Shown here piece by piece: positions 26,901 to 51,213 of a stretch of 52,757 nt of DNA (the stretch's first letter is position 1; each line of letters starts with the position of its first letter). The notes under the pieces are model-generated. The model did no database searches. It was given only the letters and a program-made list of their open reading frames with translations, and was not told where the DNA came from. The translations under genes were made by a program, and so were the position numbers. The stretch comes from a virus. Its lineage: Duplodnaviria > Caudoviricetes. The DNA lies in IMG/VR virus record IMGVR_UViG_3300013014_000040, positions 1-52,757 of that record; one strand, written 5' to 3'.

Positions 26901-27439
26901 TAAAAGCTCCCAACTTGAGTTAATACTAACGGTGTAATATCATTATTATTTATAGGAATAACTTGTATAGTATTCTCAGACAACAGTACATTGATAACAC
27001 GTTCTGCCGGAAAATTAGTGACTCTATATATAATCTTTACTGAAAATATATGGCGGTCGACGTTACGGCTAATATCTAAATCTACTAGTTCAATATACGG
27101 TACCCAACGCGCTATAGCACTACGTAATGAATCATCTACAGCGCCAACAAGATCTTCAGTGTTCTGTTCAAATAATGTATGGCGTAATGTAGTTCCAAAT
27201 TCTGGTTGCATATATCGTTCACCTACTTCAGTCATAACTAAATTAATTAAATTACTAGTCGACTGTTCTTCTGTAGTTTTTGACATATTAAATAACGTAC
27301 CGCCATTAGATGCGACCGAATTATATACTGATGTACTAGTTTGTCCTGCGGCTGCACGGTTAAACGGTAGTTTAATACCGATAGTACGATCTGGAAATAA
27401 ATTGATCGGCTGATATCTATATATTGGTCTATTAGACAT
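26900..27439 (-). CDS. baseplate wedge subunit gp25-like (GPW/gp25)
   Basis: NLINLVMTEVGERYMQPEFGTTL..LFEQ...AIARWVPYIEL. Confidence 0.9.
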   Translation of the reverse strand: MSNRPIYRYQPINLFPDRTIGIKLPFNRAAAGQTSTSVYNSVASNGGTLFNMSKTTEEQSTSNLINLVMTEVGERYMQPEFGTTLRHTLFEQNTEDLVGAVDDSLRSAIARWVPYIELVDLDISRNVDRHIFSVKIIYRVTNFPAERVINVLLSENTIQVIPINNNDITPLVLTQVGSF

Positions 27440-27909
27440 TAACGCATACCTTTCTTCTTATCAATCGCTTTCATTAACGCCGAATAATCTTTTGTCATGG
27501 CATTAACAACATTCGCTACATTTTCATTTCGTACGTTTACCGGAGCTCCGTTTATATCTTGCAAAGGAGCTACAGCTGGAGTAGCAAACGACATATCAGG
27601 TCCAGCTGATCTCATTCCGCCGAACGCTTGTGCCATTTCACTTTTAAAGTCCATTGTAGCCCATTCATCTTGAATCAATGGCGAGGCCGCTGTCTCATTT
27701 AATAAGTCGTTTAACATAGGATCTTTAACAAATGTTTTCGGCTTACTAGGTTTAACTGCTTGTTCTGACATTCGAATGCCATGGTCAATAATTTGTTTAG
27801 GTGCAACACGTTGTTCATTTAATACACGTTTCATTTCCGTACGAACTGCTGTCTGTACTTCTTCGCGAATGAGTTTACGTAAAGCATTAAAAAATGATTT
27901 TGTTTCCAT
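27439..27909 (-). CDS. hypothetical virion protein with LRKLIREEV...VLNE leader
   Basis: 156 aa; late motif upstream; DPMLNDLLNET and DYSALMK motifs. Confidence 0.75.
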   Translation of the reverse strand: METKSFFNALRKLIREEVQTAVRTEMKRVLNEQRVAPKQIIDHGIRMSEQAVKPSKPKTFVKDPMLNDLLNETAASPLIQDEWATMDFKSEMAQAFGGMRSAGPDMSFATPAVAPLQDINGAPVNVRNENVANVVNAMTKDYSALMKAIDKKKGMR

Positions 27910-39426: not shown

Positions 39427-39567
39427 TTATCCTTGACCTACATTTAGTTTTTTATAGTTCTTAGCACGTTTGTTCTTGCTTTGTTTTGTCTTTGCATGAA
39501 CACCTGGACGACGTTTTTTCGGTGGTTTACGGTATATGCCCGTGTCTTTTACCTTTGCCTTTGCCAT
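39427..39567 (-). CDS. very basic 46-aa protein ending NYKKLNVGQG (not in ORF track)
   Basis: MAKAKVKDTGIYRKPPKKRRPGVHAKTKQSKNKRAKNYKKLNVGQG*; AAGGA RBS; resembles the small KKYRGQG phage peptides. Confidence 0.75.
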   Translation of the reverse strand: MAKAKVKDTGIYRKPPKKRRPGVHAKTKQSKNKRAKNYKKLNVGQG

Positions 39568-40185: not shown

Positions 40186-41337
40186 TTATTTATATTGTTT
40201 ACCTGTCGTCGCATTTATCAGTGTCAAATTGACATTTTTATCTTGTAAACGATTCTGAACAGCATCCAGGTTTGCTAGGCTGTCGTCCATGAATTTTATA
40301 TTAGTGTAACCTCTGTTTATTTGTTTCTCAATCCAATCAGCCTTCTTCTCAGGATCACTGCTTCCAGTACCAACTACATAAGTATTAATGCCGTATGAAT
40401 CACGTAAATGTTTCATGATAGGAAAGGCAATTCTACGCGCTGTTAGTATTGTTGTCTTAATAGACGGATTGGCTAATGACTTTTTAATTTGTTGAATATT
40501 CCTCATTATAGGAAGTGACTTCTTAATGATTTTATCGAAGTTAGAAAAGTCATATTTTTCGCCTGGCTTTAACTTATGTGTAGCAAATGCATGGCTATCT
40601 AATTCATATGTACTTCCATCCGGACGTTGAACGACTACAGACGATTGTGTCTTAACTAGTGTATCATCGAAATCATACACATGTAATGTTTTACCCTGCA
40701 CTTCATTAAGTCCTTTTACCTTCTGGTATCCAGATCCGTACGGAGATGATTTACCGGTATCAGTATATGTATCCGGGTCTAGATTTTCACGTTTCTTCTT
40801 GTTACCCCAGTTTGCAGCGCCTACCTTACGACATGCACTCAAAGCCAGAGAGCCGTACGCTGATGGCCATACATCATATCTAGCTTTTACTTTATGATAA
40901 CAAGCATCCTTTTCACCCTTAGCTTCAGTTTTAACATTGATAGCCTTTTTACCTGGCTTACCTTTACCGGAATACTTATCACGTTTTCTACGAACTGCGG
41001 ATTCTTTTTCTTTATCGGACATTGCAGATGCCTTTGATGCTGGTACACATTTTGGATACGCACGTTTACCGCCCGATCTAGAACCTGAATCTGCAGATGC
41101 ACCGCATGCGGGATGACCGCCACCTGGTTTAGTACGTGATATATCTACCCAACGTTGCTTAACCCATTTACGTAAATCTTCTTGTAATGGATCTGTTAAT
41201 ATACCTTCATGCATACGTAGAGCCGTTAAGTATTTTTTTAACGCAGTTTCATTGCCATCAGTGCAGCCGACTTTCTTTCCACTGTCCTTCTTATACACGC
41301 AATACTTATTATCTACTTTTCTATAGGTATATGGCAT
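40186..41337 (-). CDS. modular protein: Cys-containing basic modules (DUF5872-like) + C-terminal HAD-family phosphatase
   Basis: DLRKWVKQRWVD..CG..YPKCVP; DACYHKVKARYDVWPSAYGS; HAD motifs VYDFDDTL, ILTAR, K, FMDDS..NL. Confidence 0.75.
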   Translation of the reverse strand: MPYTYRKVDNKYCVYKKDSGKKVGCTDGNETALKKYLTALRMHEGILTDPLQEDLRKWVKQRWVDISRTKPGGGHPACGASADSGSRSGGKRAYPKCVPASKASAMSDKEKESAVRRKRDKYSGKGKPGKKAINVKTEAKGEKDACYHKVKARYDVWPSAYGSLALSACRKVGAANWGNKKKRENLDPDTYTDTGKSSPYGSGYQKVKGLNEVQGKTLHVYDFDDTLVKTQSSVVVQRPDGSTYELDSHAFATHKLKPGEKYDFSNFDKIIKKSLPIMRNIQQIKKSLANPSIKTTILTARRIAFPIMKHLRDSYGINTYVVGTGSSDPEKKADWIEKQINRGYTNIKFMDDSLANLDAVQNRLQDKNVNLTLINATTGKQYK

Positions 41338-41339: not shown

Positions 41340-42101
41340 TTAAAATTTTATTTTATCAAATATGTTTTTACGGTTAAGTACGAACGTATCCAGCTTCGTT
41401 TCAACCTTCATATCAATTGGCAGTTTCGCTAAATTCTTTTTTATAAATGCTTGATATAATCTACCACGGCGACTATCAAGGCTAGAAGTAGGGGTATCTG
41501 AGTTTACATTAGTATCAGATTTAGGTGCTATATATATTGTCTGAACTACACACGTGTATTCATCATCATTAATTGATATAACTAGTCCTTCTACACGATC
41601 TATATAATCTTTTATACATTCTATAACTGTAGACATTACACGATATTGTTCATTGAGATTAGTTTCCGGTTCTTCATGTGCAACATCTGTTGATATTGTA
41701 AATGATACATTAGTTCTTACTAATAGTACACCAGCTTCCGATTTACTTTTAGGCATATATGTATGGTCATGACCAGCGTTATCTAGTTGTGTTGCAAGAT
41801 TAATAATATAAAAGGCTTTTGGATTAACTTCTGATTGTGCTATATACTCAACCTTAATCCAACCAGTTTCTTTAATATTATGACGTCCCATTATATTTTG
41901 TGCGGAAAGTTTAATCTTTCTAACAGGGTCGGAAGCAGATCTCCACTTCAACGGCTTAGCAGTGCTTTCACCTACTTCGTTAATAGCTTCTTCGTCAATA
42001 GGAACACAGTTAGGTACTTGTCTATCGCCTTTCTTTTTCATACCGACCTGCTTATAGCCTTTCCAGCATTCTTCAGTCAATATGTTTTTAAGCTTAAGCA
42101 T
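41340..42101 (-). CDS. putative internal head protein (leader MLKLKNILTE; CWKGY..PNCVP module)
   Basis: 253 aa; leader, then a short Cys-pair module, then a RVMSTV...RGRLY domain. Confidence 0.75.
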   Translation of the reverse strand: MLKLKNILTEECWKGYKQVGMKKKGDRQVPNCVPIDEEAINEVGESTAKPLKWRSASDPVRKIKLSAQNIMGRHNIKETGWIKVEYIAQSEVNPKAFYIINLATQLDNAGHDHTYMPKSKSEAGVLLVRTNVSFTISTDVAHEEPETNLNEQYRVMSTVIECIKDYIDRVEGLVISINDDEYTCVVQTIYIAPKSDTNVNSDTPTSSLDSRRGRLYQAFIKKNLAKLPIDMKVETKLDTFVLNRKNIFDKIKF

Positions 42102-42148: not shown

Positions 42149-43225
42149 TCATTGTATTAACTCGTATTTAATACCGTCACCTTTTGGTTCTGCAAATACA
42201 GTTGCATTTTCAAACAACATGAGCATTTTTTTAGCTTTTTTTAAATCTGTTTTTTCATAAGCATCAATACTCATATTTCTATCCTTGAATATGTCAATCA
42301 ATTCATCAAAGCTAACAGTATCAAGAATATCTAGAAAAGTTGATCGTTCAGTTTGATTTATTTCAATTCCAGCATCCGTATACTCATCTATCGGGGCATC
42401 AAGCTTATGACTGACTGATACAATACCCAATGTACCGGTACGTGCACTTAATCCTGCTGTAAGCTTAGCTATTTGTTTTATACCCGCGGGTATATTGCCA
42501 CTGAATGCAACAAACGATCCTAGCGTACCACCTATGAAATTTTTGTCATTTACATCTTCACCATTTAATGGGATAACTACTGTTTGCGCTTCGCTTTGCG
42601 TGCTGCCACCATAAAATCCTATCGTGCCACCAAAGAATGAAGCAACTTTAGGTATATGTTTCGACCACATAGCTTGACTACCTTGATATAGTATAGTGTC
42701 ACTTTCTAACACGCCGTATTTATATAAAAGAGTATCATATAAAAACGCACCAAAGCCGGCGCCTTTATATTCTTTGGCTATATTACTCCAATGAACTACT
42801 TGACCTTCCACGCCATATATGCGTTGCATACTATACTCACCTGTACTAGGAGTTGTTTCAATACGGCCTACATATACTGTTTCTGCAGGTCGTGATAAAT
42901 CAAATAGGTTATGCCAGAATCTATCATCAACTTTATTGCGTATAATATAATAGCTACCTTGACTGTCAAATGCATTGTCCTTGATAAAACCTCGCAGTCT
43001 ACCATCTAACGGGTTATTTTTAACCTCTGGTTTTGCTAACCAATATTCAGACCGGTTCCAAAACATCGATGTTGAATCTTTACCGTATAAGCGTTTAACT
43101 AAAGAATCAAATTTAGGATTCTCTGCTACAAAGTCATCCATTAGTTCAGCTGATGTGCTGTCATTTCCAGCGTCTCCTGACATTAGACTAATTTCCTTAA
43201 CGATATCTTTAAGCTTCATTGACAT
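42149..43225 (-). CDS. putative internal head protein with GNAT acetyltransferase-like domain (leader MKLKDIVKE)
   Basis: IAKEYKGAGFGAFLYD (motif A-like) ...LESDT....SQAMW. Confidence 0.65.
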   Translation of the reverse strand: MSMKLKDIVKEISLMSGDAGNDSTSAELMDDFVAENPKFDSLVKRLYGKDSTSMFWNRSEYWLAKPEVKNNPLDGRLRGFIKDNAFDSQGSYYIIRNKVDDRFWHNLFDLSRPAETVYVGRIETTPSTGEYSMQRIYGVEGQVVHWSNIAKEYKGAGFGAFLYDTLLYKYGVLESDTILYQGSQAMWSKHIPKVASFFGGTIGFYGGSTQSEAQTVVIPLNGEDVNDKNFIGGTLGSFVAFSGNIPAGIKQIAKLTAGLSARTGTLGIVSVSHKLDAPIDEYTDAGIEINQTERSTFLDILDTVSFDELIDIFKDRNMSIDAYEKTDLKKAKKMLMLFENATVFAEPKGDGIKYELIQ

Positions 43226-43226: not shown

Positions 43227-43466
43227 TTACTTTTTTCTACCTAATGTAAACCCACCTGCAAATTTATCTAAACTAGTAGCACCTAATGCAACAATTACAA
43301 TCATCTCAACTGATGATATTAAATTTTCATCAGGCTTAATAGAGCAACGGCACGCTGTAGCTACCATAGTACCACATAGAAACAACATTCCAATCATAGC
43401 AATAATACGCTTGGTAGATTGTTGTCCTTCTTTATCTGCAAACAATTGTTTAAAAAAATCTTTCAT
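43227..43466 (-). CDS. holin-like two-TM small membrane protein
   Basis: 79 aa, two hydrophobic helices, STKR motif, basic C-terminus. Confidence 0.6.
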   Translation of the reverse strand: MKDFFKQLFADKEGQQSTKRIIAMIGMLFLCGTMVATACRCSIKPDENLISSVEMIVIVALGATSLDKFAGGFTLGRKK

Positions 43467-43497: not shown

Positions 43498-43522
43498 AAA
43501 AAAGCCACCCGGTTGGATGGCC
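43498..43522 (-). terminator. Rho-independent terminator
   Basis: Minus strand GGCCATCC-AACC-GGGTGGCT followed by a T-run; closes the leader-cassette array. Confidence 0.8.
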
Positions 43523-43570
43523 TTAATATATAGTCTGGGTGGCGTGTGTTTTTATAAGCGATTCAATTGT

Positions 43571-43822
43571 TTAATCAGCAGCATATTCATCATTTGCTTC
43601 TTGTTTCGCAGCATCAATAATATCAATAATGCAATATGCTAATCTATCCGCGGATTTATTGTCTAAGTTTACACCTATCGACTGTAACTCCTTTTCTAAT
43701 GCGGCTACGGCAGCTTTAACTTCTCCTTCTAGTCTAGGAGTAATGGCATTTAAAATAGCTCCTTCATGAAGGGCTTTACTAACCTCTTCACGGATAATTT
43801 GTTTTAGTTGTTTTGAATTCAT
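43571..43822 (-). CDS. leader-tagged cassette gene A (MNSKQLKQIIREEVSKALHE...)
   Basis: Start reassigned to ATG 43822 (AAGGA RBS, repeated leader). Confidence 0.75.
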   Translation of the reverse strand: MNSKQLKQIIREEVSKALHEGAILNAITPRLEGEVKAAVAALEKELQSIGVNLDNKSADRLAYCIIDIIDAAKQEANDEYAAD

Positions 43823-43824
43823 TT
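43776..43824. repeat. leader repeat type 1, copy A
   Basis: 49 bp, 2 mismatches to 45339-45387. Confidence 0.9.
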
Positions 43825-43832
43825 TATTGTCC

Positions 43833-43883
43833 TTATATATGTATTTTTTCACGGATAATTTGTTTTAGTCGACTTGAGTTCAT
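43833..43883 (-). pseudogene. leader-only mini-ORF MNSSRLKQIIREKIHI* (empty or degenerate cassette)
   Basis: Degenerate type-1 leader copy with an immediate stop. Confidence 0.6.
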
Positions 43884-43886
43884 AAT

Positions 43887-44429
43887 TTATTTACCAATTC
43901 TAGGTTTAATATCAGAGGGGAGAGGTCCTGTCGATGTAATTTTAATATCATCATTCTTAAGAAATACTTTTTTAAGTAAATGTCGTTGTTTTGAATCTAA
44001 ATTATGTTTACGCGAAAAAAATTCTACATCAGTCGAAGTTGGGTTATCAACTGTCGAGCTTTTAAATCTTTTAATAAGTTGTTTATCGCTAGATGATAGA
44101 TAAGGTACAGTCACTGTATCTTTAATAAGCGATACTACAGCGCTTAAAGGACCTGTCATGGTAACTTCATCTTCCATGTTTCCAGCAGCTAACTCTTTAG
44201 CATCTCTACGTCCCGCTTTTTTGTAGATTTGTGTTAAGATATCTTCAACCTCATTACGTGCATTTTCATCTTTTGGGTTTGATATACGTACGTCCATCGC
44301 TACTTTTAATTTGTTTATAAGAATACTACTGATAGTAACACTCTTACCGTCAATACTGATGGTTTCAGCTTCTTTCAATACGTTCCAAATCTCTTCACGT
44401 ATAATTTGTTGTAGTTGTTTTGAATTCAT
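43887..44429 (-). CDS. leader-tagged cassette gene B (MNSKQLQQIIREEIWNVLKEA...)
   Basis: Start reassigned to ATG 44429, which removes the overlap with 44440..44649. Confidence 0.75.
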   Translation of the reverse strand: MNSKQLQQIIREEIWNVLKEAETISIDGKSVTISSILINKLKVAMDVRISNPKDENARNEVEDILTQIYKKAGRRDAKELAAGNMEDEVTMTGPLSAVVSLIKDTVTVPYLSSSDKQLIKRFKSSTVDNPTSTDVEFFSRKHNLDSKQRHLLKKVFLKNDDIKITSTGPLPSDIKPRIGK

Positions 44430-44431
44430 TT
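44368..44431. repeat. leader repeat type 1, copy B
   Basis: 64 bp, 3 mismatches to 45324-45387; identity ends at the LKEA codons. Confidence 0.95.
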
Positions 44432-44439
44432 CATTATCT

Positions 44440-44649
44440 TTACAATTCATGATAACCAGCATTAGCCTGGTTGATGTAAACTTCTGCTTGAGAAATATGG
44501 CCTTGTATCCAAGCCGGAAGATTCTTTTCCGTCTTACCAACCTTTTGTGAAAGTTCTACAGCTGAACGTGCAATTACCAACAATTGTTGTTGAACCATTT
44601 TAACTTCATGGTCTTCGTCTGCTTCTTTGAGTAAGTTTTTTAGTTTCAT
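44440..44649 (-). CDS. leader-tagged cassette gene C (MKLKNLLKEA; DHEV.M...LPAWIQ motif)
   Basis: 69-aa ORF. Confidence 0.75.
   Translation of the reverse strand: MKLKNLLKEADEDHEVKMVQQQLLVIARSAVELSQKVGKTEKNLPAWIQGHISQAEVYINQANAGYHEL
44621..44649. repeat. leader repeat type 2, copy C
   Basis: 29 bp, 1 mismatch to 44851-44879. Confidence 0.92.
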
Positions 44650-44879
44650 TTGCGTAAATCTATTTGTTTTAGCCGAGCTTGTATTTGAACTAACTCACGT
44701 TTTGATAGTATCAACCATTTTCTAATATCTTTATGTTCAATAAGTCTAGCTGCGTCATCAATAGATTGCATTAACTCATCAACTGATGAAACAACATTTA
44801 CTAACGCTTGATGTTGTTTTGGTTCTAAGTAAGTTGTTAACTGACCAGAAGCTTCTTTAAGTAAGTTTTTTAGTTTCAT
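44646..44879 (-). CDS. leader-tagged cassette gene D (MKLKNLLKEA...)
   Basis: 77-aa ORF, ATGA overlap with gene C. Confidence 0.75.
   Translation of the reverse strand: MKLKNLLKEASGQLTTYLEPKQHQALVNVVSSVDELMQSIDDAARLIEHKDIRKWLILSKRELVQIQARLKQIDLRK
44851..44879. repeat. leader repeat type 2, copy D
   Basis: GCTTCTTT(A/G)AGTAAGTTTTTTAGTTTCAT. Confidence 0.92.
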
Positions 44880-44881
44880 AA

Positions 44882-45385
44882 TTATACTTTAAACTTTTTA
44901 ACGACATCTGCTAACTTGTTATAATGCTTAGCAACGAAAGCAGGATCTATTTCATAGACAGAATACCCAAAACTCGATAAAGCTTCGTTAACATCCGTTA
45001 GAGCTTTTGCAAGCTTTTTATCTTTAAGCATTTCAGCGCTATCATCATCACTACATATAGCAAAAAGTGTATCTGTGTTATCGGATAAAAGATCTAAAAC
45101 CTTTTTGAAGTCTGCGTTGTCACCTGTTTTATAAAATTTAGAGAAGTCCAATAAGAATTTTGCAAGATACTCAATACCTTTAAACTTTTTAAAGCCTGAT
45201 ATAGTTTCGCCTTCATAGTCTTCATAGTCATCATCCAATACAGAAGCTGTTAGTGGAGTTGTTACTAGTTTAAGTATCTGGTCAAATTTGTTAAAGTCTA
45301 AATCTTTTAACGGCGTTGACGATGCTTCTTTCAATACGTTACTAACCTCTTCACGTATAATTTGTTGTAGTTGTTTTGAATTCAT
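44882..45385 (-). CDS. leader-tagged cassette gene E (MNSKQLQQIIREEVSNVLKEA...)
   Basis: 167-aa ORF, AAGGA RBS, late motif upstream. Confidence 0.8.
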   Translation of the reverse strand: MNSKQLQQIIREEVSNVLKEASSTPLKDLDFNKFDQILKLVTTPLTASVLDDDYEDYEGETISGFKKFKGIEYLAKFLLDFSKFYKTGDNADFKKVLDLLSDNTDTLFAICSDDDSAEMLKDKKLAKALTDVNEALSSFGYSVYEIDPAFVAKHYNKLADVVKKFKV

Positions 45386-45387
45386 TT
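45324..45387. repeat. leader repeat type 1, copy E
   Basis: 64 bp, near-identical to 44368-44431. Confidence 0.95.
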
Positions 45388-45414
45388 ATATAGTCCTTAT
45401 ATAATAATAACAAT

Positions 45415-45423
45415 AATAAATAT
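45415..45423 (-). promoter_or_regulatory. putative late promoter ATATTTATT heading the cassette array
   Basis: Repeated motif upstream of ATG 45385. Confidence 0.6.
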
Positions 45424-45429: not shown

Positions 45430-45690
45430 CTACCAATAACCACCAGGACATGATTCATTAGGCGACATGCATTTTGCTGTTACCGGACAATTACATCCCG
45501 AGAATACCGTACGGTCTTTTGCCCAAGCCTTAATACGGCTGCTACACGTATTACCGTCTCGTACTGGACATTGTAAACATATGGTAAGTCTAGCATCAGC
45601 TAATTGCCGTGTTTCCGAATCTAATGTACCTCGTTTAGATAACCATAGATTCCACCACCCTTCGGCAATATTACGCGGATTGATTTTCAT
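45430..45690 (-). CDS. Cys-rich putative Zn-binding protein (DUF6171-like)
   Basis: RLTICLQCP...C...GCNCP..AK......CP..YW. Confidence 0.72.
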   Translation of the reverse strand: MKINPRNIAEGWWNLWLSKRGTLDSETRQLADARLTICLQCPVRDGNTCSSRIKAWAKDRTVFSGCNCPVTAKCMSPNESCPGGYW

Positions 45691-45984: not shown

Positions 45985-46152
45985 CTATATGCCATTTAAT
46001 ACAGCAATCAAGCTATCAAAGAATGCATAGGCACACCAACCGACCATAGCCCAGCCAAAGGCCGACCAACCAGGATTGCCAGCTCGGGTATGGCGTCGTG
46101 CTATTTGAGCATTAAATACTCCCAATACCAAAAATACTACTAACATAATCAT
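45985..46152 (-). CDS. small membrane protein (55 aa, not in ORF track)
   Basis: MIMLVVFLVLGVF...GWAMVGWCAYAFFDSLIAVLNGI*; promoter directly upstream. Confidence 0.6.
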   Translation of the reverse strand: MIMLVVFLVLGVFNAQIARRHTRAGNPGWSAFGWAMVGWCAYAFFDSLIAVLNGI

Positions 46153-46177
46153 AAGCGTTTTCTTTTTAAATGTTTAT

Positions 46178-46209
46178 ACAATATACCGAAAAAATCTTGT
46201 ATCGTCAAA
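46178..46209 (-). promoter_or_regulatory. putative host-RNAP promoter TTTG-N20-TATATTGT (also reads TTGACG-N17-TATATT)
   Basis: Intergenic; same spacing as the other copies. Confidence 0.55.
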
Positions 46210-46528
46210 ACTTTGTTCCATTTGCACTGCGACATAAATCTAACACCAGCATTGTTTCATGAACCTCAACCTTAACAGGATCGGCAAACCCAATTAGCAC
46301 ATATTCATGTGTCAAGCCATATCCTCGATTTACGCTCGCACACCACGTGCCCAAGCGCTTCTTACCGGTCTCCGAATTTAGTATCCATACATCGCCATCA
46401 TGACGACCCAGACGTGCAAATTGTGCTCTACCAGCGGCAGTCTCTGCAAGACATACGATCAGCGTATTGCTAGCTGGCATCCATTCCCATTGGGGGCTCG
46501 GCCAAGCATTAAGTGTTACGGTTTCCAT
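46205..46528 (-). CDS. paralog-array protein 5 (WxW...NxxTG family)
   Basis: WEWMPASNTLIV...VWILNSETGKKRL; start 46528 preferred over 46564. Confidence 0.7.
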   Translation of the reverse strand: METVTLNAWPSPQWEWMPASNTLIVCLAETAAGRAQFARLGRHDGDVWILNSETGKKRLGTWCASVNRGYGLTHEYVLIGFADPVKVEVHETMLVLDLCRSANGTKF

Positions 46529-46838
46529 GTTTATGATAATTTGCGCGTAGGATGTCATAGTCATCCCATACAGTTAATTTAACGACACGCCCTTTGGGGT
46601 TATTTGTACAAGGTACCCGGGCCATGAAAGCTACATAATGATTCAGCCATTGGGAGTATTTGTTAAAGCGAGCATGGTTACCGGTTGCTGGGTTATGGAC
46701 GCGTACGGTATGCGCATGCCAGGTATCACCTAGATCTGATACTATAGGAAACAATTCCCATCGGGTAATGTGAATGGTATCAGTTCTGGTTTCCCATATA
46801 AAGGTACCTGGATCTAATCTATAGCTTAACGTGGTCAT
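46509..46838 (-). CDS. paralog-array protein 4
   Basis: FIWETRTDTIHI...VRVHNPATGNHARF...KLTVWD. Confidence 0.75.
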   Translation of the reverse strand: MTTLSYRLDPGTFIWETRTDTIHITRWELFPIVSDLGDTWHAHTVRVHNPATGNHARFNKYSQWLNHYVAFMARVPCTNNPKGRVVKLTVWDDYDILRANYHKHGNRNT

Positions 46839-47220
46839 CGGCCCATTTTTTAGGTGTTATTAAATTAGGTGTATCAGGATGTATATAGCGCGCTCTGTAT
46901 TGAGCCCACCCTGTAGCATTATCCCATACTTGCAAGGTATATGCTTCATCCATAGTCTTAAAGGTTGCCATGGTGAGTCTTCCATCGGCGCCTACTACGC
47001 TGTGGTCATAATGAAATATCATCTTGCCATTAGTTACGCGATTGTGAAGGCATATGGCTTCACCATGACGTGCCATGCCATCTAGATTCATCGCTGTATT
47101 ATCCTGCAGGTCCAACAACGCATAACGAATGATGTGGATAACACCTATATCCGGGAACCATGCCCACACATGTGAGCCCGGATCAAGTATTCCTACGTGT
47201 CCTACTACTCCGCGCGTCAT
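46819..47220 (-). CDS. paralog-array protein 3
   Basis: WAWFPDIGVIHI...ICLHNRVTNGKMIF...TLQVWD. Confidence 0.75.
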   Translation of the reverse strand: MTRGVVGHVGILDPGSHVWAWFPDIGVIHIIRYALLDLQDNTAMNLDGMARHGEAICLHNRVTNGKMIFHYDHSVVGADGRLTMATFKTMDEAYTLQVWDNATGWAQYRARYIHPDTPNLITPKKWADDHVKL

Positions 47221-47528
47221 ATGTCACCTCCTTTTATGCGTTCTTCCCATTCTGATGGTACCCATACCATCATGGTTAAGGTTGGGTCTTCTTCGCTGCG
47301 AAAAAGCTTGCAATAGCATGTCATACCCCAATTGGCATCATGGTAATGCTGAAATATCTTGGTGACGCCTGTAGCTGGATTATGTACCCGTAATGCTGGA
47401 ATATCCTCGCCCATGTGCTGTGGTGCTCCTGCACCGTACAACATCCAGGCATTGACATGGAAATGGTATTCAGCAGCATTCCAACGCCAATACTTGTTAA
47501 ACTGTTCACTTAGAAAAACTGTCATCAT
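47217..47528 (-). CDS. paralog-array protein 2
   Basis: WRWNAAEYHFHV...LRVHNPATGVTKIF...TMMVWV; start 47528 (ATGA overlap). Confidence 0.75.
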   Translation of the reverse strand: MMTVFLSEQFNKYWRWNAAEYHFHVNAWMLYGAGAPQHMGEDIPALRVHNPATGVTKIFQHYHDANWGMTCYCKLFRSEEDPTLTMMVWVPSEWEERIKGGDI

Positions 47529-47854
47529 ATGCTTATGCTCCTTTGTTTTTTTAGATTCTGAAGTAGCTCCCTGTTCTTCCAAATAACCATTGGTATGTTA
47601 AGGATACCCTTTTCCAGGTCCTCGGCCGCATACTTCATGCTATAGGTTCCGCGCCAGGTTTGCCGAAATACAATGGAGCCCTTAGTTTCTTCATTAATGG
47701 CTCGGATGGGGGTAGTCAGGTTATCCCAATGATAGGTACCGTGATCTCCGAATAAGAGCTCTAAGCATATATGTAATTCATCTGTAACCCATACCCAATC
47801 CTTATCACGATTGAAGCTCGATAGGTATGCGCGCAATAAACGTTCTTCTGTCAT
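47525..47854 (-). CDS. paralog-array protein 1
   Basis: WVWVTDELHI...IRAINEETKGSIVF...PMVIWK. Confidence 0.75.
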   Translation of the reverse strand: MTEERLLRAYLSSFNRDKDWVWVTDELHICLELLFGDHGTYHWDNLTTPIRAINEETKGSIVFRQTWRGTYSMKYAAEDLEKGILNIPMVIWKNRELLQNLKKQRSISI

Positions 47855-48045
47855 TGTTTGCTAGTTTTGATTCTTGTTCATTTATATATAGACCCTCTTG
47901 GGAGGGTTGGGCTTTAGCCCAAATCCTTTCAGACCGGCGGCTATAGCAAAAAAAAATATGTTCACGATAAAAATGGGTTAAGCACCCACCAAAGCACCGG
48001 TATTCCTGGGTATGTTAAGGATAACCGGTATATCCCCCTATATAT

Positions 48046-48101
48046 GGGGCTTTTAGGGCTATATAGGGCATTATGGGCGGTTATAGGTGGTTATGGGTGG
48101 G
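48046..48101 (+). other. G-tract array with ~10-bp period (G-quadruplex-forming consensus)
   Basis: GGGG-N6-GGG-N7-GGG-N6-GGG plus further GG/GGG runs, in non-coding DNA. Confidence 0.55.
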
Positions 48102-48106
48102 TATGG

Positions 48107-48547
48107 CTAGGTATGTTCGGTTGGCATTGGTATACACCGGTTAGGGTGTGCTTTCAGGTAATCCTTTAAAACATCTCGCCAATACCTTTCCATTGCCCTT
48201 GCTGCTACCTCTAAGGGGTTACGCTGATATCCAAAGCGGGTATCGGTGCGCGCATATAACCGCTTGATAGGCTGTCGGCTATGCGTATACTCATGCAGGA
48301 TGGTCTTAAGGTATTCCTGGATATGGCTAGCCTGCTTCGTGTTAATATATATAAGGTTCTCATCTTCATCATAGTAGCCGAGGGTAAATGCATCTGGGCT
48401 CCATGTTCTGGGTCTTATATGTTTAACATCAATTGCATACTCATGAACGCGCTTACCGAAGTATGTATTGCACCAGGCTAGCGTATAGTTCTTTAAATGC
48501 TTTAGTTGGCTAGCTTTAAGATCTGCTATCTGCGTATCGCCGTTCAT
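48107..48547 (-). CDS. zincin metallopeptidase-like protein (HExxH)
   Basis: LGYYD....IYIN, TILHEYTHSRQ, YQRNPLEVAA. Confidence 0.8.
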   Translation of the reverse strand: MNGDTQIADLKASQLKHLKNYTLAWCNTYFGKRVHEYAIDVKHIRPRTWSPDAFTLGYYDEDENLIYINTKQASHIQEYLKTILHEYTHSRQPIKRLYARTDTRFGYQRNPLEVAARAMERYWRDVLKDYLKAHPNRCIPMPTEHT

Positions 48548-48642
48548 ATTATCAGATTCAATAGCGCCAACGTTCCTACTAGTCCTAATATCCAGGCCAA
48601 CATCTCTACGGCCATCTTCTTGCTTATTATATACTTACTCAT
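48544..48642 (-). CDS. small membrane peptide (32 aa)
   Basis: MSKYIISKKMAVEMLAWILGLVGTLALLNLII*; ATGA overlaps at both ends. Confidence 0.55.
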   Translation of the reverse strand: MSKYIISKKMAVEMLAWILGLVGTLALLNLII

Positions 48643-48785
48643 TTCTTTATGTTATGTGCAGCTCCTGCTATTAATTCTTTCATTGCTTCCGTACCTAACC
48701 AGCATAGACCTACTAGGCATGCTATAAACGCTAACGGTACCATCGCGCGTAGTAAAAAGGGGGTGTCTCTATTCATATTAAACAT
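48639..48785 (-). CDS. small membrane peptide (48 aa)
   Basis: ...AMVPLAFIACLVGLCWLG...; fills the gap, ATGA overlap. Confidence 0.55.
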   Translation of the reverse strand: MFNMNRDTPFLLRAMVPLAFIACLVGLCWLGTEAMKELIAGAAHNIKK

Positions 48786-48789
48786 TGTA

Positions 48790-49122
48790 TTACTTATTTG
48801 CTGGTGTTACTCGGTACATAAAGCTTGGCTTAAGGCCCATTCTACGGCTGAAATGCGCTACTACGGTATAACCAAATAGCTCTTTTAACTTAGGAGCCAT
48901 GCCGTTAATTAACTTATAGGCATCATAAGCCTTACCATAATCATTTAGGTTCAGCTCATAGTACTTATAGCGCCATGCATTACGACGGGTACCGCGGCCT
49001 TGCATACCTACATACCAATGATACTCTTCGCTTATCTTGCGTTTGGTCCGGATCGATCCTATTTCTTTCTTAACAACGGCCCGTATATAAGCCGCAACTT
49101 CCTGGGTGGTTTTCTTTGTCAT
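48790..49122 (-). CDS. basic hypothetical protein
   Basis: 110-aa ORF. Confidence 0.7.
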   Translation of the reverse strand: MTKKTTQEVAAYIRAVVKKEIGSIRTKRKISEEYHWYVGMQGRGTRRNAWRYKYYELNLNDYGKAYDAYKLINGMAPKLKELFGYTVVAHFSRRMGLKPSFMYRVTPANK

Positions 49123-49141
49123 ATGACTTATTTTTTATATA

Positions 49142-49300
49142 TTAGTATCTAGATACCTTACTACGTAATGACCTCTTAGCCAGAACCTTGTCTCGGCCTC
49201 TTTGTTGGGCTTCGGTTTCTGATAGACGCTCTACGGTCAAAGCAAAATCATAGGCCATTCTAAATAAGACGCGCTCAGCGCCGGTGTACTCTGTACTCAT
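49142..49300 (-). CDS. small hypothetical protein (52 aa, not in ORF track)
   Basis: MSTEYTGAERVLFRMAYDF...KVSRY*; fills the gap. Confidence 0.6.
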   Translation of the reverse strand: MSTEYTGAERVLFRMAYDFALTVERLSETEAQQRGRDKVLAKRSLRSKVSRY

Positions 49301-49319
49301 ATATACTAGTTGTTTGTAA

Positions 49320-49730
49320 TTACTTGTTCATTACATAGGCCTTATCTGCCCACGTCTTGCTATTAACGGCCTTATATTGCGCCATACTATACAGGCCTGT
49401 ATTGCTAAGGTCCTGGTTGATATCTCCAATCACCATATCCTTTAACAAGACATCCATAGCCCAAACCTTCTTACCCATTCTAGCATATACCGTTAAGGCC
49501 GACTCTGTTAAAGGGCTAATGAAAGCAATACTTGCAATAGCTTTGGCCTTATATCCGCGGAAGGCTTGGATCGGTGAATCACATTGGACTTCCGATGATA
49601 CCATGAACCCAGCCTTACACTTGGTAATCACTCGATAGGTACCTTTACCAAAGAAGCCTTCTGCTCCAGATGCGGTCATCACATTCAATTCCTTACGGGG
49701 AACTACAACTAAATCTTTAATCATTCTCAT
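49320..49730 (-). CDS. hypothetical protein
   Basis: ORF track 49320..49784; ATG 49730 preferred. Confidence 0.72.
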   Translation of the reverse strand: MRMIKDLVVVPRKELNVMTASGAEGFFGKGTYRVITKCKAGFMVSSEVQCDSPIQAFRGYKAKAIASIAFISPLTESALTVYARMGKKVWAMDVLLKDMVIGDINQDLSNTGLYSMAQYKAVNSKTWADKAYVMNK

Positions 49731-49807
49731 TTCTATAGGGGTTAAAATTATAAACATCGGACGCTCAATACCTACGCTGCACAATTGCAGGGGCTACTAA
49801 GAACGGA

Positions 49808-50059
49808 TTAGGCCGTTACCTTAGCCGTTAACGGCACCCACTTTCCATCCACAATCTTATGGGGAATACCATCTCTCATGATATACTTGGGATAAGTCGG
49901 GGTCAAATTCTGAACCAAACCATTGTTACGGTTGAACTTTTGTGGACGTCCTGGGCGAACCTTTTCCGTCAAAGCCTTAAGCTCCTTAGCAGCCTGGATG
50001 GGCGATAAAAGGTCAACAATCTTTTTACTAGGGCTAAAATTCATTCTCTTGTTCTTCAT
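49808..50059 (-). CDS. basic hypothetical protein (PGRP AT-hook-like motif)
   Basis: 83 aa; AAGGA RBS; promoter upstream. Confidence 0.72.
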   Translation of the reverse strand: MKNKRMNFSPSKKIVDLLSPIQAAKELKALTEKVRPGRPQKFNRNNGLVQNLTPTYPKYIMRDGIPHKIVDGKWVPLTAKVTA

Positions 50060-50078
50060 ATCCTTTTTATTTATATAA

Positions 50079-50110
50079 TAAAGATAAGGACATTATTCCC
50101 AAAAACCTAA
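50079..50110 (-). promoter_or_regulatory. putative host-RNAP promoter TTAGG-N16-CCTTATCTTTA
   Basis: Shares AATGTCCTTATCTTTA with the copy at 34.7 kb. Confidence 0.65.
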
Positions 50111-50145
50111 GGAAATGTTGAAAATGTTTGCTAAATGTTGCCTTG

Positions 50146-50195
50146 TAACCTATTGATACACAATGACTTATAACCACTTGATAATCAATATGTTA
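50146..50195. repeat. two abutting 25-bp imperfect palindromes TAA-N4-TTG-N5-CAA-N4-TTA
   Basis: TAACCTATTGATACACAATGACTTA / TAACCACTTGATAATCAATATGTTA. Confidence 0.7.
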
Positions 50196-50727
50196 GGATC
50201 GATCCAGGGAGACGAAGTCTTTATATAAAAAATTTTTTTCTTCGAGAAAAAGTTGTTACACTTCCAACCACATTCCCCAATATACCATAACCGATGCATG
50301 ATTGGAGCGTCTTCATCTTCATTAAGGGAAAACTATTAAGGCGTACACCTTATTAGAACACGTTAATTGTAGGATCTGGATACGATTATATCTTGTTCTA
50401 GGGATCCTTTGGGCGCCTTTTAACGTTCTCTTATACGGTCTTTATTCGGTCGGCCTAGGGAGCACTTCTGAACGAAGCAATCCTAGCTTAAAGAAGCAAG
50501 GACCAGAGAAAAAACCACTAAACCCTGATCCTTGCTGTATTGCATATTGTTCTATATGCTATAACTCTTTCTTTATTATCTTTCGTATCTTATCTACTAG
50601 TACTACTATGGCTATTAGTATAGCAATTACTGCGCTGGTATAAAGAGTTACCCATGATATTGCTATCTTCTGGATTAGCATGCTTATCATACTCATCTTT
50701 ATTCTTATTAGGGAGGCCGTAACTTCG

Positions 50728-51117
50728 TTACAGCGCTACCGTTAGGATCTCTCGGATCACAATTTCATCTGCCGGATAATCTCCCTTAAGGAGCTTGGCT
50801 ACCGTGTAGTCAATGCTAACTCCCGATTTCTTTTGGATCCAAAACTCTTCAAGGAATTCTGATGAGGTAATGTCACCGATTGCATTTCGTGTTACTCGGA
50901 ACACTGCTACTTTTACTTGCTGATTCTTATTCATTTGATTTATTTGATTACTATTATTACTATTAGTTAAGGTTGAACCTCTGTGGATATGTACATCCGT
51001 AAGGAAGTTGGCCACCGGTATAGTGGCATTCGGTTGGAAGCTAAAACTACCATCGGTAGTGATGACCCGCTGGTCCAATAACACACACCCTTCTGAATTC
51101 ATTGTTACTGTATTCAT
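50728..51117 (-). CDS. hypothetical protein
   Basis: ORF track 50728..51153; start uncertain (51117 or 50934). Confidence 0.6.
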   Translation of the reverse strand: MNTVTMNSEGCVLLDQRVITTDGSFSFQPNATIPVANFLTDVHIHRGSTLTNSNNSNQINQMNKNQQVKVAVFRVTRNAIGDITSSEFLEEFWIQKKSGVSIDYTVAKLLKGDYPADEIVIREILTVAL

Positions 51118-51213
51118 ATTACTTCTTTTGTTTGTGGTCTCGATCAAATACAATTAAGCCAATGACTAGCAATGACCATATCATGAAAAGACCCGTTTCT
51201 ATTACGCCGTGCA

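What the first reader, a model, noticed from the sequence alone, without database searches (positions are those of the whole stretch)
43498..45423. Array of unrelated cargo genes fused to DNA-repeated N-terminal leaders that stop at L-K-E-A
Seen: five genes lie between one ATATTTATT motif (45415) and one terminator (43498-43522). Their bodies are unrelated but their 5' ends are near-identical DNA. Type 1 (MNSKQLxQIIREEV..VLKEA): 44368-44431 vs 45324-45387 match at 61/64 nt, and 43776-43824 matches at 47/49 nt. Type 2 (MKLKNLLKEA): 44621-44649 vs 44851-44879 match at 28/29 nt. In both B/E and C/D the identity ends right after LKEA, and synonymous sites are conserved too, implying recent recombination or duplication. 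Known: T4 internal proteins carry a short N-terminal capsid-targeting sequence removed by the gp21 protease at L/I-x-E. Inference: this is a plug-in cassette locus. The leader would act both as a packaging/cleavage tag and as the homology arm for swapping cargo that is loaded into the head and injected with the DNA, possibly as a variable anti-defence or host-takeover payload.
Basis: partly seen in the sequence, partly recalled or inferred. Interest (0 to 1): 0.88.

Follow-up and report, generated by a model that had tools for sequence, protein, structure and literature searches.

The report
Swappable leader-tagged phage cargo genes
A lake-water phage carries a row of small unrelated genes that all begin with the same short leader, most likely an address tag that loads them into the phage head as in phage T4, and related phages shuffle these genes by recombining within the leader.

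Summary
Five minus-strand genes plus one truncated leader remnant lie between a promoter-like ATATTTATT (45415) and a terminator hairpin (about 43501-43524). Their 5' ends are near-identical DNA of two types, and identity stops at the Glu-Ala codons.

Leaders stay constant while cargo number and order vary. The same cargo occurs behind different leaders with the junction always at [L/I/V]-x-E|A/S, and breakpoints lie at or inside the leader.

The anatomy matches the T4 internal-protein system. T4 ipII and ipIII share identical DNA through MKTYQEFIAE|A and then diverge. The window is a contig about 30% complete that ends just before the head module, so its own protease is unseen. All 3 complete genomes of the wider clade encode a T4 gp21-type (S77) prohead protease. 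Their capsid proteins keep L-I-x-E|S/A at the position aligned with the T4 gp23 cleavage site, and head-module genes in two of the three carry the same leader types.

The long leader is a new family: 869 protein clusters, about 91 cargo families among the top 150 hits, and none in T4 or four cultured T4-like marine phages. Packaging, cleavage and injection are inferred, not shown. Cargo function is unknown. I rate it a new variant of a known kind.

The parts
45415..45423 (-). Promoter-like ATATTTATT about 30 nt upstream of gene A. It belongs to the ATATTTATW class.
   Evidence: All 14 of 14 window matches are on the coding strand, and 12 of 14 lie just upstream of start codons. One of them (27927-27935) heads the operon that holds the two recognisable baseplate-wedge genes. 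The total count is not above chance (14 against 10.8 expected). The argument rests on strand and placement only.
44882..45385 (-). Gene A, 167 aa. It has the long (type 1) leader, 21 codons at 45323-45385, then cargo A (147 aa if cut after Glu20, pI 4.7). Cargo A is the first gene of the array in every close relative whose upstream flank is visible.
44646..44879 (-). Gene B, 77 aa. It has the short (type 2) leader MKLKNLLKE|A (44850-44879), then cargo B (68 aa, pI 9.2).
   Evidence: Of 12 cargo-B homologues, 9 carry type 2 and 3 carry type 1, all with the same junction KEA|SGQ.
44440..44649 (-). Gene C, 69 aa. It has the type 2 leader (44620-44649), then cargo C (60 aa). Its ATG overlaps the stop codon of B.
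43887..44429 (-). Gene D, 180 aa. It has the type 1 leader (44367-44429), then cargo D (160 aa, pI 9.4).
   Evidence: In L008 the same cargo has a different leader front half, and DNA identity resumes at CGTGAAGAG inside the leader.
43833..43883 (-). Truncated leader remnant (MNSSRLKQIIREKIHI*). It is followed by a copy of the ATATAAGGAC ribosome-binding stretch that also precedes gene A. I read it as a recombination scar.
   Evidence: fourth copy of repeat family D1; leader profile E = 2e-6.
43571..43822 (-). Gene E, 83 aa. It has a type 1 leader ending ALHE|G (43760-43822), then cargo E (63 aa, pI 4.3).
   Evidence: A cargo-E relative (P0071) has an unrelated leader MVKNFRQFVNE|S at the same junction.
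43498..43524 (-). Intrinsic-terminator-like hairpin (10-bp stem, loop AACC) followed by UUUUUU. It closes the array.
   Evidence: The consensus scan did not report it.
43227..43466 (-). Conserved flanking gene (79 aa, predicted membrane protein) with its own ATATTTATT. It forms the fixed downstream edge of the array in L002, L006 and L008.
42149..43225 (-). 358-aa protein with a type 2-like N-terminus MSMKLKDIVKE|I. It is conserved in L006 and L008.
41340..42101 (-). 253-aa protein: type 2-like leader MLKLKNILTE|E directly followed by a CWxGY...VPNCVP domain.
   Evidence: In LR756508 the same domain sits behind a type 1-like leader.
27439..27909 (-). 156-aa protein heading the baseplate-wedge operon, with a type 1-like N-terminus (..LRKLIREEVQTAV..VLNE|Q). 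Whether it belongs to the system is uncertain.
   Evidence: E = 0.003. The motif is kept in its positional counterparts in G002 and Mel-JY01.

Best explanation
This is a hypervariable array of internal-protein-like genes in a large T4-like freshwater myovirus. Each gene is a short N-terminal leader fused to an unrelated cargo. There are two leader forms: a 21-residue amphipathic helix M-x3-4-L-K-Q-I-I-R/K-E-E-I/V-x3-L-K/N-E|A, and a 10-residue form MKLKNLLKE|A.

Inferred mechanism, by analogy with the T4 capsid targeting sequence:
- The array is transcribed from a late-type promoter together with structural genes.
- The leader binds the scaffolding core of the prohead and so loads the cargo.
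- The gp21-family (S77) prohead protease then cuts after the Glu of [L/I/V]-x-E.
- The mature cargo is left inside the head and enters the host with the DNA.

Shown here: the leader coding sequence is also the place where recombination happens. Cargos are added, lost, reordered and re-tagged between related phages by crossovers at or inside the leader. Some paralogous leaders within one genome are kept DNA-identical.

Not shown: packaging, cleavage, injection and what the cargos do.
For: 1. Leader DNA repeats with unrelated bodies, identity ending at the Glu-Ala codons.

2. T4 ipII and ipIII, read from NC_000866, have the same anatomy. Their DNA is identical from the ribosome-binding site through MKTYQEFIAE|A (GAAGC) and then diverges.

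3. Cassette behaviour in relatives.
- L002 has A-X1-X2-D, L006 has (A)-C-X3-E, L008 has (A)-X4-B-C-X5-D, and the window has A-B-C-D-remnant-E. All sit upstream of the same 79-aa gene.
- G010 carries a run of 8 leader genes with one leaderless ORF inside it. Seven of them were scored by the leader profile.

4. The same cargo occurs behind different leaders with a fixed junction.
- Cargo A: of 21 homologues aligned, 14 have a type 1 leader, 6 have MKYFKLFE.FVNE|A, and 1 is a fusion that keeps IVKE|A.
- Cargo B: 9 have type 2 and 3 have type 1.
- Cargo X1: type 2 in L002 and type 1 in L004.
- Cargo D and E relatives have unrelated N-termini ending LISE|A and FVNE|S.

5. DNA breakpoints lie at the ATG or inside the leader.

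6. The constraint is on the peptide. Conserved residues use several synonymous codons across genomes: L6 has 4, I10 has 3, L18 has 4.

7. The protease is present in the clade. PF03420 (S77) scores above the curated cut-off in 3 of 3 complete clade genomes: Mel-JY01 104.5 bits, G002 108.2 bits, G003 94.9 bits.

8. The clade capsid proteins have QLITE|S, QLISE|A and QLIEE|S aligned exactly with T4 gp23 FLTE65|A66. That this is the T4 cleavage position is my recollection.

9. The leader types occur on head-module genes.
- In G002: MRLKNKILIE|G, MSKDNKIKLKALLNE|A, MTSLKNIISE|K and a scaffold-like protein starting MQDLLKE|A, all between the portal and capsid genes.
- In G003: a type 1-like leader gene sits directly after the capsid gene.

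10. The same promoter-like 9-mer heads the baseplate operon.

11. In 130 of 148 top profile hits the leader ends [LIVMF]-x-E. It is followed by A, G, S or T in 98 of those 130. Conservation vanishes from the next residue on.

12. Literature passages read: gp21 cuts after L/I-x-E; the 10-residue CTS suffices for packaging; T-even Ip proteins share only the leader and sit in hotspots (PMC9026906, PMC3012670, PMC12373910).
Against: - No protease, scaffold or capsid gene is in the window. The record is rated 30% complete, and by synteny with G002 it ends just before the head module. The protease is therefore shown only for clade members whose baseplate protein is about 50% identical.
- There are no virion proteomics for any phage with these leaders. 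No paper on Mel-JY01 is held.
- The type 1 leader profile finds nothing in T4, S-PM2, Syn9, P-SSM2 or HTVC008M (0 of 5), nor in Mel-JY01 or immuto. It is therefore not homologous to the proven T4 tag.
- A type 1-like motif also heads a conserved gene at the start of the baseplate operon in three genomes. That does not fit a head-only role unless this gene too encodes a head protein.
- [L/I/V]-x-E is a short motif that is common by chance.
- The count is partly circular, because the search profile contained those columns.
- The 'late' class of the promoter motif is inferred from gene neighbours only.
Confidence: 0.65

Rival explanations
1. The leader is an assembly or targeting helix for some other destination, such as the tail or baseplate interior, another virion compartment or a host structure. 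It is not a head-protease substrate. The arrays would still be shuffled by recombination in the leader.
For: - A type 1-like N-terminus sits on the conserved first gene of the baseplate-wedge operon in the window (27439-27909), G002 (135791) and Mel-JY01 (162463).
- The heptad-like spacing of the hydrophobic residues in the leader would suit any helix-helix contact. This is read from the sequences.
Against: - It does not explain the near-invariant Glu followed by a small residue exactly at the module boundary.
- It does not explain why unrelated alternative leaders converge on [I/V]-x-E|A/S.
- The leader types occur on genes between the portal, protease, scaffold and capsid genes.
- The baseplate-adjacent proteins also have VLNE|Q, ILYE|S and IISE|N a little further in, so they could be head-protease substrates as well.
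Confidence: 0.12
2. These are small non-virion accessory proteins, for example host-takeover factors. They merely share an N-terminal helix by common descent and gene conversion. The helix is part of the working protein and nothing is packaged or cleaved.
For: - No cargo has a recognised function.
- Paralogous leaders within a genome can be DNA-identical.
- The locus adjoins a block of small ORFs of different base composition, GC 0.40-0.44 against about 0.35.
Against: - Hundreds of unrelated bodies share only the leader: 869 clusters, and 91 families among 136 cargos. That is module reuse, not descent of whole proteins.
- Conservation stops at one residue.
- The array uses the promoter-like motif shared with structural operons.
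- The leader types occur inside head modules.
Confidence: 0.12
3. The repeat works at the DNA or RNA level, as a translation-initiation or regulatory element or as a dedicated recombination or homing site. The peptide it encodes would be incidental.
For: - Within the window there are no synonymous differences between the A and D leaders.
- A GIY-YIG ORF lies next to the array in L005.
- Short regulatory cassettes are reported to mediate shuffling in T4-type phages. I saw only the search listing and abstracts of PMC2839356 and PMC4122927.
Against: - Across genomes the amino acids are kept while the codons vary. Synonymous differences occur at 498 of 1660 identical-residue codons between loci, and conserved Leu and Ile use 3-4 codons each.
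- The leader always starts at residue 1 of the protein or of an internal unit.
Confidence: 0.05
4. The genes are precursors of modified peptides (leader plus core), or form a polymorphic-toxin-like array with immunity genes.
For: The only support is the general picture of a constant N-terminal leader, a variable C-terminal part, tandem genes and a truncated remnant.
Against: - The cargos are 60-160-residue proteins and show no Cys/Ser/Thr-rich cores on inspection of the translations.
- No maturation enzyme, toxin or immunity family is detected in or beside the array.
- The genes are not arranged in alternating pairs.
Confidence: 0.02

Closest known systems
T-even phage internal proteins (IpI, IpII, IpIII and the variable Ip loci) with their capsid targeting sequence, processed by the gp21 prohead protease
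   Same: - A short N-terminal leader is shared by otherwise unrelated small proteins.
- Leaders within one genome are DNA-identical, and identity ends at the Glu-Ala codons. This was verified for T4 ipII/ipIII.
- The leader ends in L/I-x-E followed by Ala.
- The loci differ between related phages.
- The phage lineage has a gp21-family protease, a gp20-type portal and a gp23-type capsid protein.
- The 10-residue short leader MKLKNLLKE|A has the same length and layout as MKTYQEFIAE|A.
   Different: - The long leader is 21 residues and is not detectably related to the T4 tag (0 hits in T4).
- Arrays are longer, up to 8 leader genes.
- Two or more leader types are interchanged on one cargo.
- Some database proteins carry 2-3 leader units in one reading frame.
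- The phages are uncultured freshwater myoviruses, related at about 50% (baseplate protein) to Microcystis phage Mel-JY01 and 42% to Flavobacterium phage immuto.
- Packaging, cleavage and targets are unproven here. T4 Ip1-3 are shown inhibitors of GmrSD-type restriction (PMC12373910, passages read).
Propeptide-bearing ejection and inner-body proteins of giant phages (phiKZ, 201phi2-1, SPN3US), cut by diverged gp21 homologues
   Same: Many head-internal proteins are processed after Glu at a minimal motif, and the propeptides are thought to direct incorporation (PMC9026906, passages read).
   Different: The motif there is S/A-x-E. A shared, DNA-repeated, swappable leader is not mentioned in the passages I read, and I did not search for it. 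Those proteins are large and mostly conserved.
Promoter/stem-loop cassettes (PeSLs) that mediate gene shuffling in hyperplastic regions of T4-like phages
   Same: Short conserved sequences that flank variable genes serve as recombination points.
   Different: Those are intergenic regulatory motifs. Here the crossover sequence is the coding leader, and genes in the array are 0-10 nt apart with no promoter between them. I saw only the search listing and abstracts of PMC2839356 and PMC4122927.
Polymorphic toxin loci with orphan cassettes (a resemblance recalled from memory, not tested beyond the family scans)
   Same: A constant N-terminal delivery module, variable C-terminal parts exchanged at a conserved junction, and truncated remnants.
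   Different: No toxin or immunity domains are detected. The modules are whole small genes rather than C-terminal tips of one giant protein. The presumed delivery vehicle is a phage head.

Membership tests
T4-type internal protein / capsid-targeting-sequence system | A short N-terminal leader shared by otherwise unrelated proteins of one phage | tested here: met
   Two leader types occur on five genes. The bodies match no known family, and DNA identity between them is lost after the leader.
T4-type internal protein / capsid-targeting-sequence system | The leader ends in the gp21 recognition motif L/I-x-E, with the cut after Glu | tested here: met
   At the sequence level only. The endings are LKE|A (A-D), LHE|G (E), VNE|A, ISE|A and VNE|S on alternative leaders. 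130 of 148 top profile hits fit (partly circular). Actual cleavage cannot be tested with these tools.
T4-type internal protein / capsid-targeting-sequence system | The phage encodes a gp21-family (Peptidase_S77) prohead protease and a scaffolding core | tested here: inconclusive
   Not in the window, which is rated 30% complete and by synteny stops before the head module. Present above the Pfam cut-off in 3 of 3 complete clade genomes. Absent from 9 fragments rated 11-47% complete, which says nothing either way.
T4-type internal protein / capsid-targeting-sequence system | The leader is homologous in sequence to the T4 CTS (MKTYQEFIAE) | tested here: not met
   The type 1 profile gives no match in T4. 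The short leader resembles the T4 tag in length and layout only. This is therefore an analogue or a very distant relative, not a member by sequence.
T4-type internal protein / capsid-targeting-sequence system | The proteins are packaged in the head, processed, and injected with the DNA | not testable with these tools
T4-type internal protein / capsid-targeting-sequence system | The locus is polymorphic among related phages while the leader is kept | tested here: met
PeSL-type mobile regulatory cassettes | Recombination at intergenic promoter plus stem-loop motifs that flank each variable gene | tested here: not met
   There are no intergenic motifs inside the array. Breakpoints are at the ATG or within the leader.
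Modified-peptide (RiPP) precursor arrays | A leader plus a short modifiable core peptide, with maturation enzymes nearby | tested here: not met
   The cargos are 60-160 aa. No maturation enzyme families occur in or beside the locus.

The most novel reading that the evidence does not exclude
The 21-residue leader is a general address tag of a large group of uncultured aquatic T4-like phages. It would mark a very large and almost wholly unannotated pool of head-packaged, host-injected proteins: at least 869 protein clusters and roughly 90 unrelated cargo families among the best 150.

Because the tag is also the crossover site, these phages could trade injected effectors as plug-in units and re-tag them between a long and a short leader. 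Reading frames with two or three internal leader units, each preceded by ..E|S and ending ..E|A, would be polyproteins that the prohead protease cuts into several injected proteins.

Some relatives make 7-deazaguanine-modified DNA. A QueC gene lies 2 kb from the array in L001, and immuto phages appear in a paper on such modifications. Part of the cargo may therefore inhibit modification-dependent restriction, as T4 Ip1-3 do.
Probability: 0.35. Interest if true: 0.8.

Novelty: new variant of a known kind. Interest (0 to 1): 0.62.

Why it matters
If the leader is a head-loading tag, a 21-residue sequence signature would pick out injected proteins in uncultured phage genomes. These are the first phage proteins a cell meets, and in T4 all three characterised ones are anti-restriction factors. 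That would open hundreds of unannotated cargo families to directed tests for anti-defence activity.

It would also give a second, unrelated packaging tag for loading foreign proteins into phage heads.

Finally, it would show at DNA resolution how a coding tag doubles as a recombination site for exchanging payloads. That idea was proposed for T-even phages but has not been documented outside them in the papers I could search.

Tried and rejected
**Searches that gave nothing for the cargo**
- PHROGs, Pfam and PADLOC on A-E and their neighbours gave nothing above threshold.
- A profile of cargo A against PDB sequences gave only a weak 23-bit match to a disulfide isomerase fragment. I take it as chance.
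- The ESM Atlas gave no usable hit.
- blastn and tblastn of the locus, of A, of D and of the 358-aa protein against 50,697 phage records found no match.
- tblastn of a tandem-leader protein (P0080) found no match.

**Searches for relatives that fell short**
- An exact degenerate leader DNA pattern in IMG/VR gave 0 matches.
- The 358-aa protein in IMG/VR gave none.
- The leader alignment as a query for loci confirmed only 5 of more than 597 pattern matches.

**A recollection that did not hold**
I vaguely recalled that marine T4-like cyanophages carry this leader. The profile found 0 of 5 in S-PM2, Syn9, P-SSM2, HTVC008M and T4.

**Protease search in fragments**
The protease search in fragments G001 and G004-G011 found none. 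These fragments are 11-47% complete, so this says nothing.

**Read layout**
- RNA-library contigs hold the locus at 100% identity, but the tool states that this does not show transcription.
- The 'goes back 956' joint (45346 to 44391) runs through 41 letters shared by the A and D leaders. It is most simply an assembly loop.
- The X12 joint that skips cargo E has depth 2 and a 34-letter side.
- The X19 loose ends at 43773 and 43822 come from single contigs.
- I treat all of these as hints only.

**Promoter motif**
The ATATTTATW count is not above chance. Only its strand and placement are used.

**Literature**
- Repoila et al. 1994 (PMC395341) is not held. What I say of it comes from citing passages.
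- No paper mentions Mel-JY01.
- The five listed papers that mention immuto concern DNA modification, polymerases or virus dispersal by their titles and abstracts. I saw the listing only.
- The leader strings are not in any relevant paper.
- 'capsid targeting' with 'cyanophage' returns only the T4 review, and the four-term search returns two known papers.
- Supplementary files were not consulted. Virion proteome tables in supplements could bear on the claim.

**Rejected readings**
I rejected a Sec or Tat signal peptide, because the leader is charged and not hydrophobic. I also rejected RiPP and toxin-immunity arrays (see the rival explanations).

Full report
**What is there**

The window is a whole 52,757-bp virus record in which essentially every gene is on the minus strand. 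CheckV rates it about 30% complete. Between 45,423 and about 43,498 lie five tightly packed genes.

| Gene | Coordinates | Length | N-terminus |
|---|---|---|---|
| A | 44882-45385 | 167 aa | MNSKQLQQIIREEVSNVLKE\|A |
| B | 44646-44879 | 77 aa | MKLKNLLKE\|A |
| C | 44440-44649 | 69 aa | MKLKNLLKE\|A |
| D | 43887-44429 | 180 aa | MNSKQLQQIIREEIWNVLKE\|A |
| E | 43571-43822 | 83 aa | MNSKQLKQIIREEVSKALHE\|G |

The repeat search over the whole window ranks the long leader as its top direct-repeat family.
- 44368-44431 and 45324-45387 are 95% identical over 64 nt.
- 43761-43824 is a third copy.
- The short leader is a separate family, 44621-44649 against 44851-44879, 97% identical.

The fourth copy is a truncated leader ORF (43833-43883, MNSSRLKQIIREKIHI*). 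It runs into a copy of the ATATAAGGAC stretch that also precedes gene A. This looks like a recombination scar.

Identity starts at or 2 nt before the ATG and ends at GAAGC, the Glu-Ala codons. The three A/D mismatches all change the amino acid, so there is no synonymous difference in 21 codons.

A 10-bp hairpin followed by a U-run closes the array (-16.7 kcal/mol, z = -2.7).

**What kind of phage**

Recognisable genes in the window are two baseplate-wedge proteins (gp25-like and gp6-like), a fused Mre11/Rad50-like nuclease, a primase and an endonuclease.

The gp6-like protein is 50% identical to that of Microcystis phage Mel-JY01 (190 kb). It is 42% identical to an uncultured 484-kb phage and to the Flavobacterium phages immuto (160 kb). 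At least 599 IMG/VR stretches encode a relative. The best 80 loci are 45-74% identical and include a complete 197-kb genome (G002) and a 253-kb one (G003).

No terminase, portal, protease or capsid gene is in the window. In G002, homologues of the window's leftmost genes lie immediately upstream of terminase, portal, protease, scaffold and capsid protein. These are the cytidylyltransferase-like protein and the MSNKLQNVKAN... protein. The contig therefore simply stops before the head module.

Cargo A has 24 metagenomic homologues (E-values 1.7e-99 to 6.1e-40). Eight loci with flanks were fetched.

Close relatives keep the same downstream gene (79 aa, MKDFFKQLFADKEGQQ) but have different arrays:

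| Source | Array |
|---|---|
| Window | A-B-C-D-remnant-E |
| L002 | A-X1-X2-D |
| L006 | (A)-C-X3-E |
| L008 | (A)-X4-B-C-X5-D |

More distant relatives (L001, L004, L005, G008) place A-X-X6 arrays after the ribonucleotide reductase gene. All of those use the leader MKLSQLKQIIKEE.... G010 has a run of 8 leader genes, and the 484-kb phage has several runs. I count at least 12 cargo families in 9 loci.

The same cargo appears behind different leaders, always joined at the same residue.
- Cargo A: of 21 homologues aligned, 14 start with a long leader and 6 with an unrelated 13-residue leader MKYFKLFE.FVNE|A. One is a fusion in which another leader-cargo unit is joined in frame through ...IVKE|A.
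- Cargo B: of 12 homologues, 9 carry the short leader and 3 a long one. All have the junction KEA|SGQ.
- Cargo X1: it has the short leader in L002 and a long one in L004.
- Relatives of cargos D and E: they carry unrelated N-termini ending LISE|A and FVNE|S at the point where cargo homology begins.

DNA alignments of orthologous cargos place the breakpoints at the ATG (B, C, E) or inside the leader. For D in L008, identity resumes at CGTGAAGAG.

Population data give only weak hints of the same thing. One freshwater DNA contig skips cargo E, and single contigs diverge exactly at the two edges of the E leader.

**Peptide or DNA element?**

Across the 18 long leaders for which I had DNA, the conserved residues are encoded by several synonymous codons: L6 by 4, I10 by 3, E13 by 2, L18 by 4, A21 by 3. 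Synonymous differences occur at 498 of 1660 identical-residue codons between loci and at 45 of 201 within loci.

The constraint is therefore on the peptide. The DNA identity of particular pairs (A/D and B/C in the window) reflects recent duplication or conversion.

**How widespread**

A profile of the 18 long leaders (30 columns) was searched against 1.84 billion representative proteins. It found 869 with E <= 0.001.
- Among the 150 listed, 148 have the [KRQ]-[EQ]-E core within the first 45 residues, and the other two also start leader-like.
- 130 of the 148 have [LIVMF]-x-E at the end of the leader. A, G, S or T follows in 98 of those 130. From the next position on, no residue exceeds about 16%.
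- This is partly circular for the leader columns. It is not circular for the abrupt loss of conservation.
- Their 136 cargo parts of at least 30 residues fall into 91 single-linkage families. None carries an informative name.
- Some long proteins contain two or three units, each beginning MK(I/L)TK.QLKQIIKEE. The internal units are often preceded by ..ESK.

The profile finds 5 places in the window. It finds 3 in G002, 1 in G003 and 8 in the 484-kb phage, but none in Mel-JY01 or immuto. It also finds none in T4, S-PM2, Syn9, P-SSM2 or HTVC008M.

**Comparison with T4, made from sequence rather than memory**

In NC_000866, ipII and ipIII begin MKTYQEFIAE|A. Their DNA is identical from the ribosome-binding site through GAAGC and unrelated afterwards. 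ipI has a diverged version. That is the same anatomy as here.

The passages I read say the following.
- gp21 cuts after L/I-x-E, first seen as a Glu-Ala bond. The first 10 residues of IPIII suffice for head targeting, with residues 4 and 7 needed for targeting and 8 and 10 for processing. The review's authors suggest the tag is an evolutionary device for loading varied proteins (PMC9026906).
- The internal proteins are a diverse set that share only the tag (PMC3012670).
- Related phages encode at least 10 Ips in hotspots, and Ip1-3 each inhibit one GmrSD-type restriction enzyme (PMC12373910).

**Link to a head protease in this lineage**

- Peptidase_S77 is found above the curated cut-off in 3 of 3 complete clade genomes.
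- G002 has a T4-like head module: a gp20-type portal, three unknown proteins, the S77 protease, two unknown proteins, a scaffold-like acidic protein and a gp23-type capsid protein.
- The N-termini of proteins in that module look like the short leader: MRLKNKILIE|G, MSKDNKIKLKALLNE|A, MTSLKNIISE|K, and MQDLLKE|A on the scaffold-like protein. Two of the six genome-wide matches to a short-leader pattern in G002 lie in this 7-kb module. Two more are an adjacent gene pair near a long-leader gene.
- In G003 the only long-leader match is the gene directly after the capsid gene.
- Mel-JY01 has two adjacent MIKLKSLL.E genes.
- In an alignment with T4 gp23, the site FLTE65|A66 lines up with QLITE|S, QLISE|A and QLIEE|S in the three clade capsid proteins. 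That this is the T4 maturation site is my recollection. This suggests the clade protease keeps the L/I-x-E specificity.

**Expression class**

ATATTTATW occurs 14 times in the window, always on the coding strand. Twelve occurrences lie just upstream of start codons. These include gene A, the 79-aa flank gene and the first gene of the operon that holds the gp25-like and gp6-like baseplate genes.

The count itself is not above chance. The inference of a late-type promoter rests on strand, placement and neighbours.

The locus stands at 100% identity in contigs of lake metatranscriptome libraries. That does not prove transcription.

**Best explanation and its limits**

I commit to the following at about 0.65. 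These are internal-protein-like genes whose leader loads the cargo into the prohead. The S77 protease removes the leader after [L/I/V]-x-E, and the cargo enters the host with the DNA.

Shown:
- the repeats;
- the module boundary;
- cassette shuffling and leader swapping;
- peptide-level constraint;
- the protease and the conserved capsid cleavage motif in the clade;
- leader types in head modules.

Inferred:
- binding to the scaffold;
- cleavage;
- packaging;
- injection.

Unknown: cargo function.

The main discordant fact is a long-leader-like N-terminus on the conserved first gene of the baseplate operon in three genomes. It also has an [L/I]-x-E a little further in. It may be a conserved head-internal protein encoded there, or it may mean that the helix serves assembly more broadly.

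**Novelty**

The principle is known from T-even phages, so a specialist would not be astonished. The following are new, as far as my searches of the held literature show:
- a second, unrelated and longer leader family;
- its interchange with a short form on the same cargo;
- arrays of up to eight genes;
- multi-unit reading frames;
- its very wide spread in uncultured aquatic T4-like phages.

I rate it a new variant of a known kind, with interest 0.62.

Noticed in passing
window 46000-52757: The base composition shifts from GC 0.31-0.38 to 0.40-0.44 exactly upstream of the array. The block holds many small ORFs with no matches. L003 shows the same block joined to gene A, so it is not a misassembly.
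   Followed up: partly
window 45430-45690: An 86-aa Cys-rich ORF lies between the 72-aa gene and gene A. It is absent in L003, where the 76-aa homologue is followed directly by A. This is another insertion or deletion at the 5' edge of the array.
   Followed up: no
window 34689-34719 and 50064-50094; also upstream of starts at 31846 and 34951: There is a second upstream motif class (..TCCTTAT.TTTAAGA.C..) in front of an endonuclease gene and of several small or unannotated ORFs. It is distinct from ATATTTATW and may be an early or middle promoter.
   Followed up: no
window 1576-3249 (internal Met at 2625): The 557-aa cytidylyltransferase-like protein contains an internal short-leader-like MKLKDLIVE|G. 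Its 817-aa G002 counterpart contains ..KLLQE|DCWDGYKQIGMKKKGKKQVPNCVP internally. Leader-cargo units may have been fused into larger proteins.
   Followed up: partly
window 41340-42101 and 40186-41337; G002 166078-166623: The 253-aa and 383-aa proteins downstream of the array share PHROG families (phrog_4359, 38880, 727) with a 181-aa protein encoded between protease and scaffold in G002. That points to the head for these proteins too.
   Followed up: partly
window 39427-39567: A 46-aa extremely basic protein (MAKAKVKDTG..KKRRPG..) has similar counterparts directly beside the leader arrays in G010 and near the sheath gene in G002.
   Followed up: no
L001 12950-13798: A QueC gene (Pfam 122.6 bits) lies about 2 kb downstream of the leader array in a relative. 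Immuto phages appear in a paper on 7-deazaguanine DNA modifications (search listing of PMC10516641 only). This suggests modified DNA in the clade.
   Followed up: partly
L005 590-1222: A GIY-YIG-type ORF (MKRGIYKITSPEGKIYIGLS..) is inserted between the ribonucleotide reductase gene and cargo A in one relative only.
   Followed up: no
proteins P0079, P0085, P0118, P0135, P0205, P0207, P0208: These database proteins of 360-440 aa contain two or three leader units in one frame. The internal units start with Met and several are preceded by ..ESK. They could be polyproteins, fused gene calls or read-through.
   Followed up: partly
window 8262-11408: A single 1048-aa ORF combines a phosphoesterase-like N-terminus (..HIADVHVRN..) with an SbcC/Rad50-like body (phrog_77). 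In T4 these are two genes, 47 and 46. The T4 gene names are recalled.
   Followed up: no
window 32520-32606: An 18-nt tandem repeat lies inside the 354-aa ORF 32416-33480 (repeat family D2).
   Followed up: no
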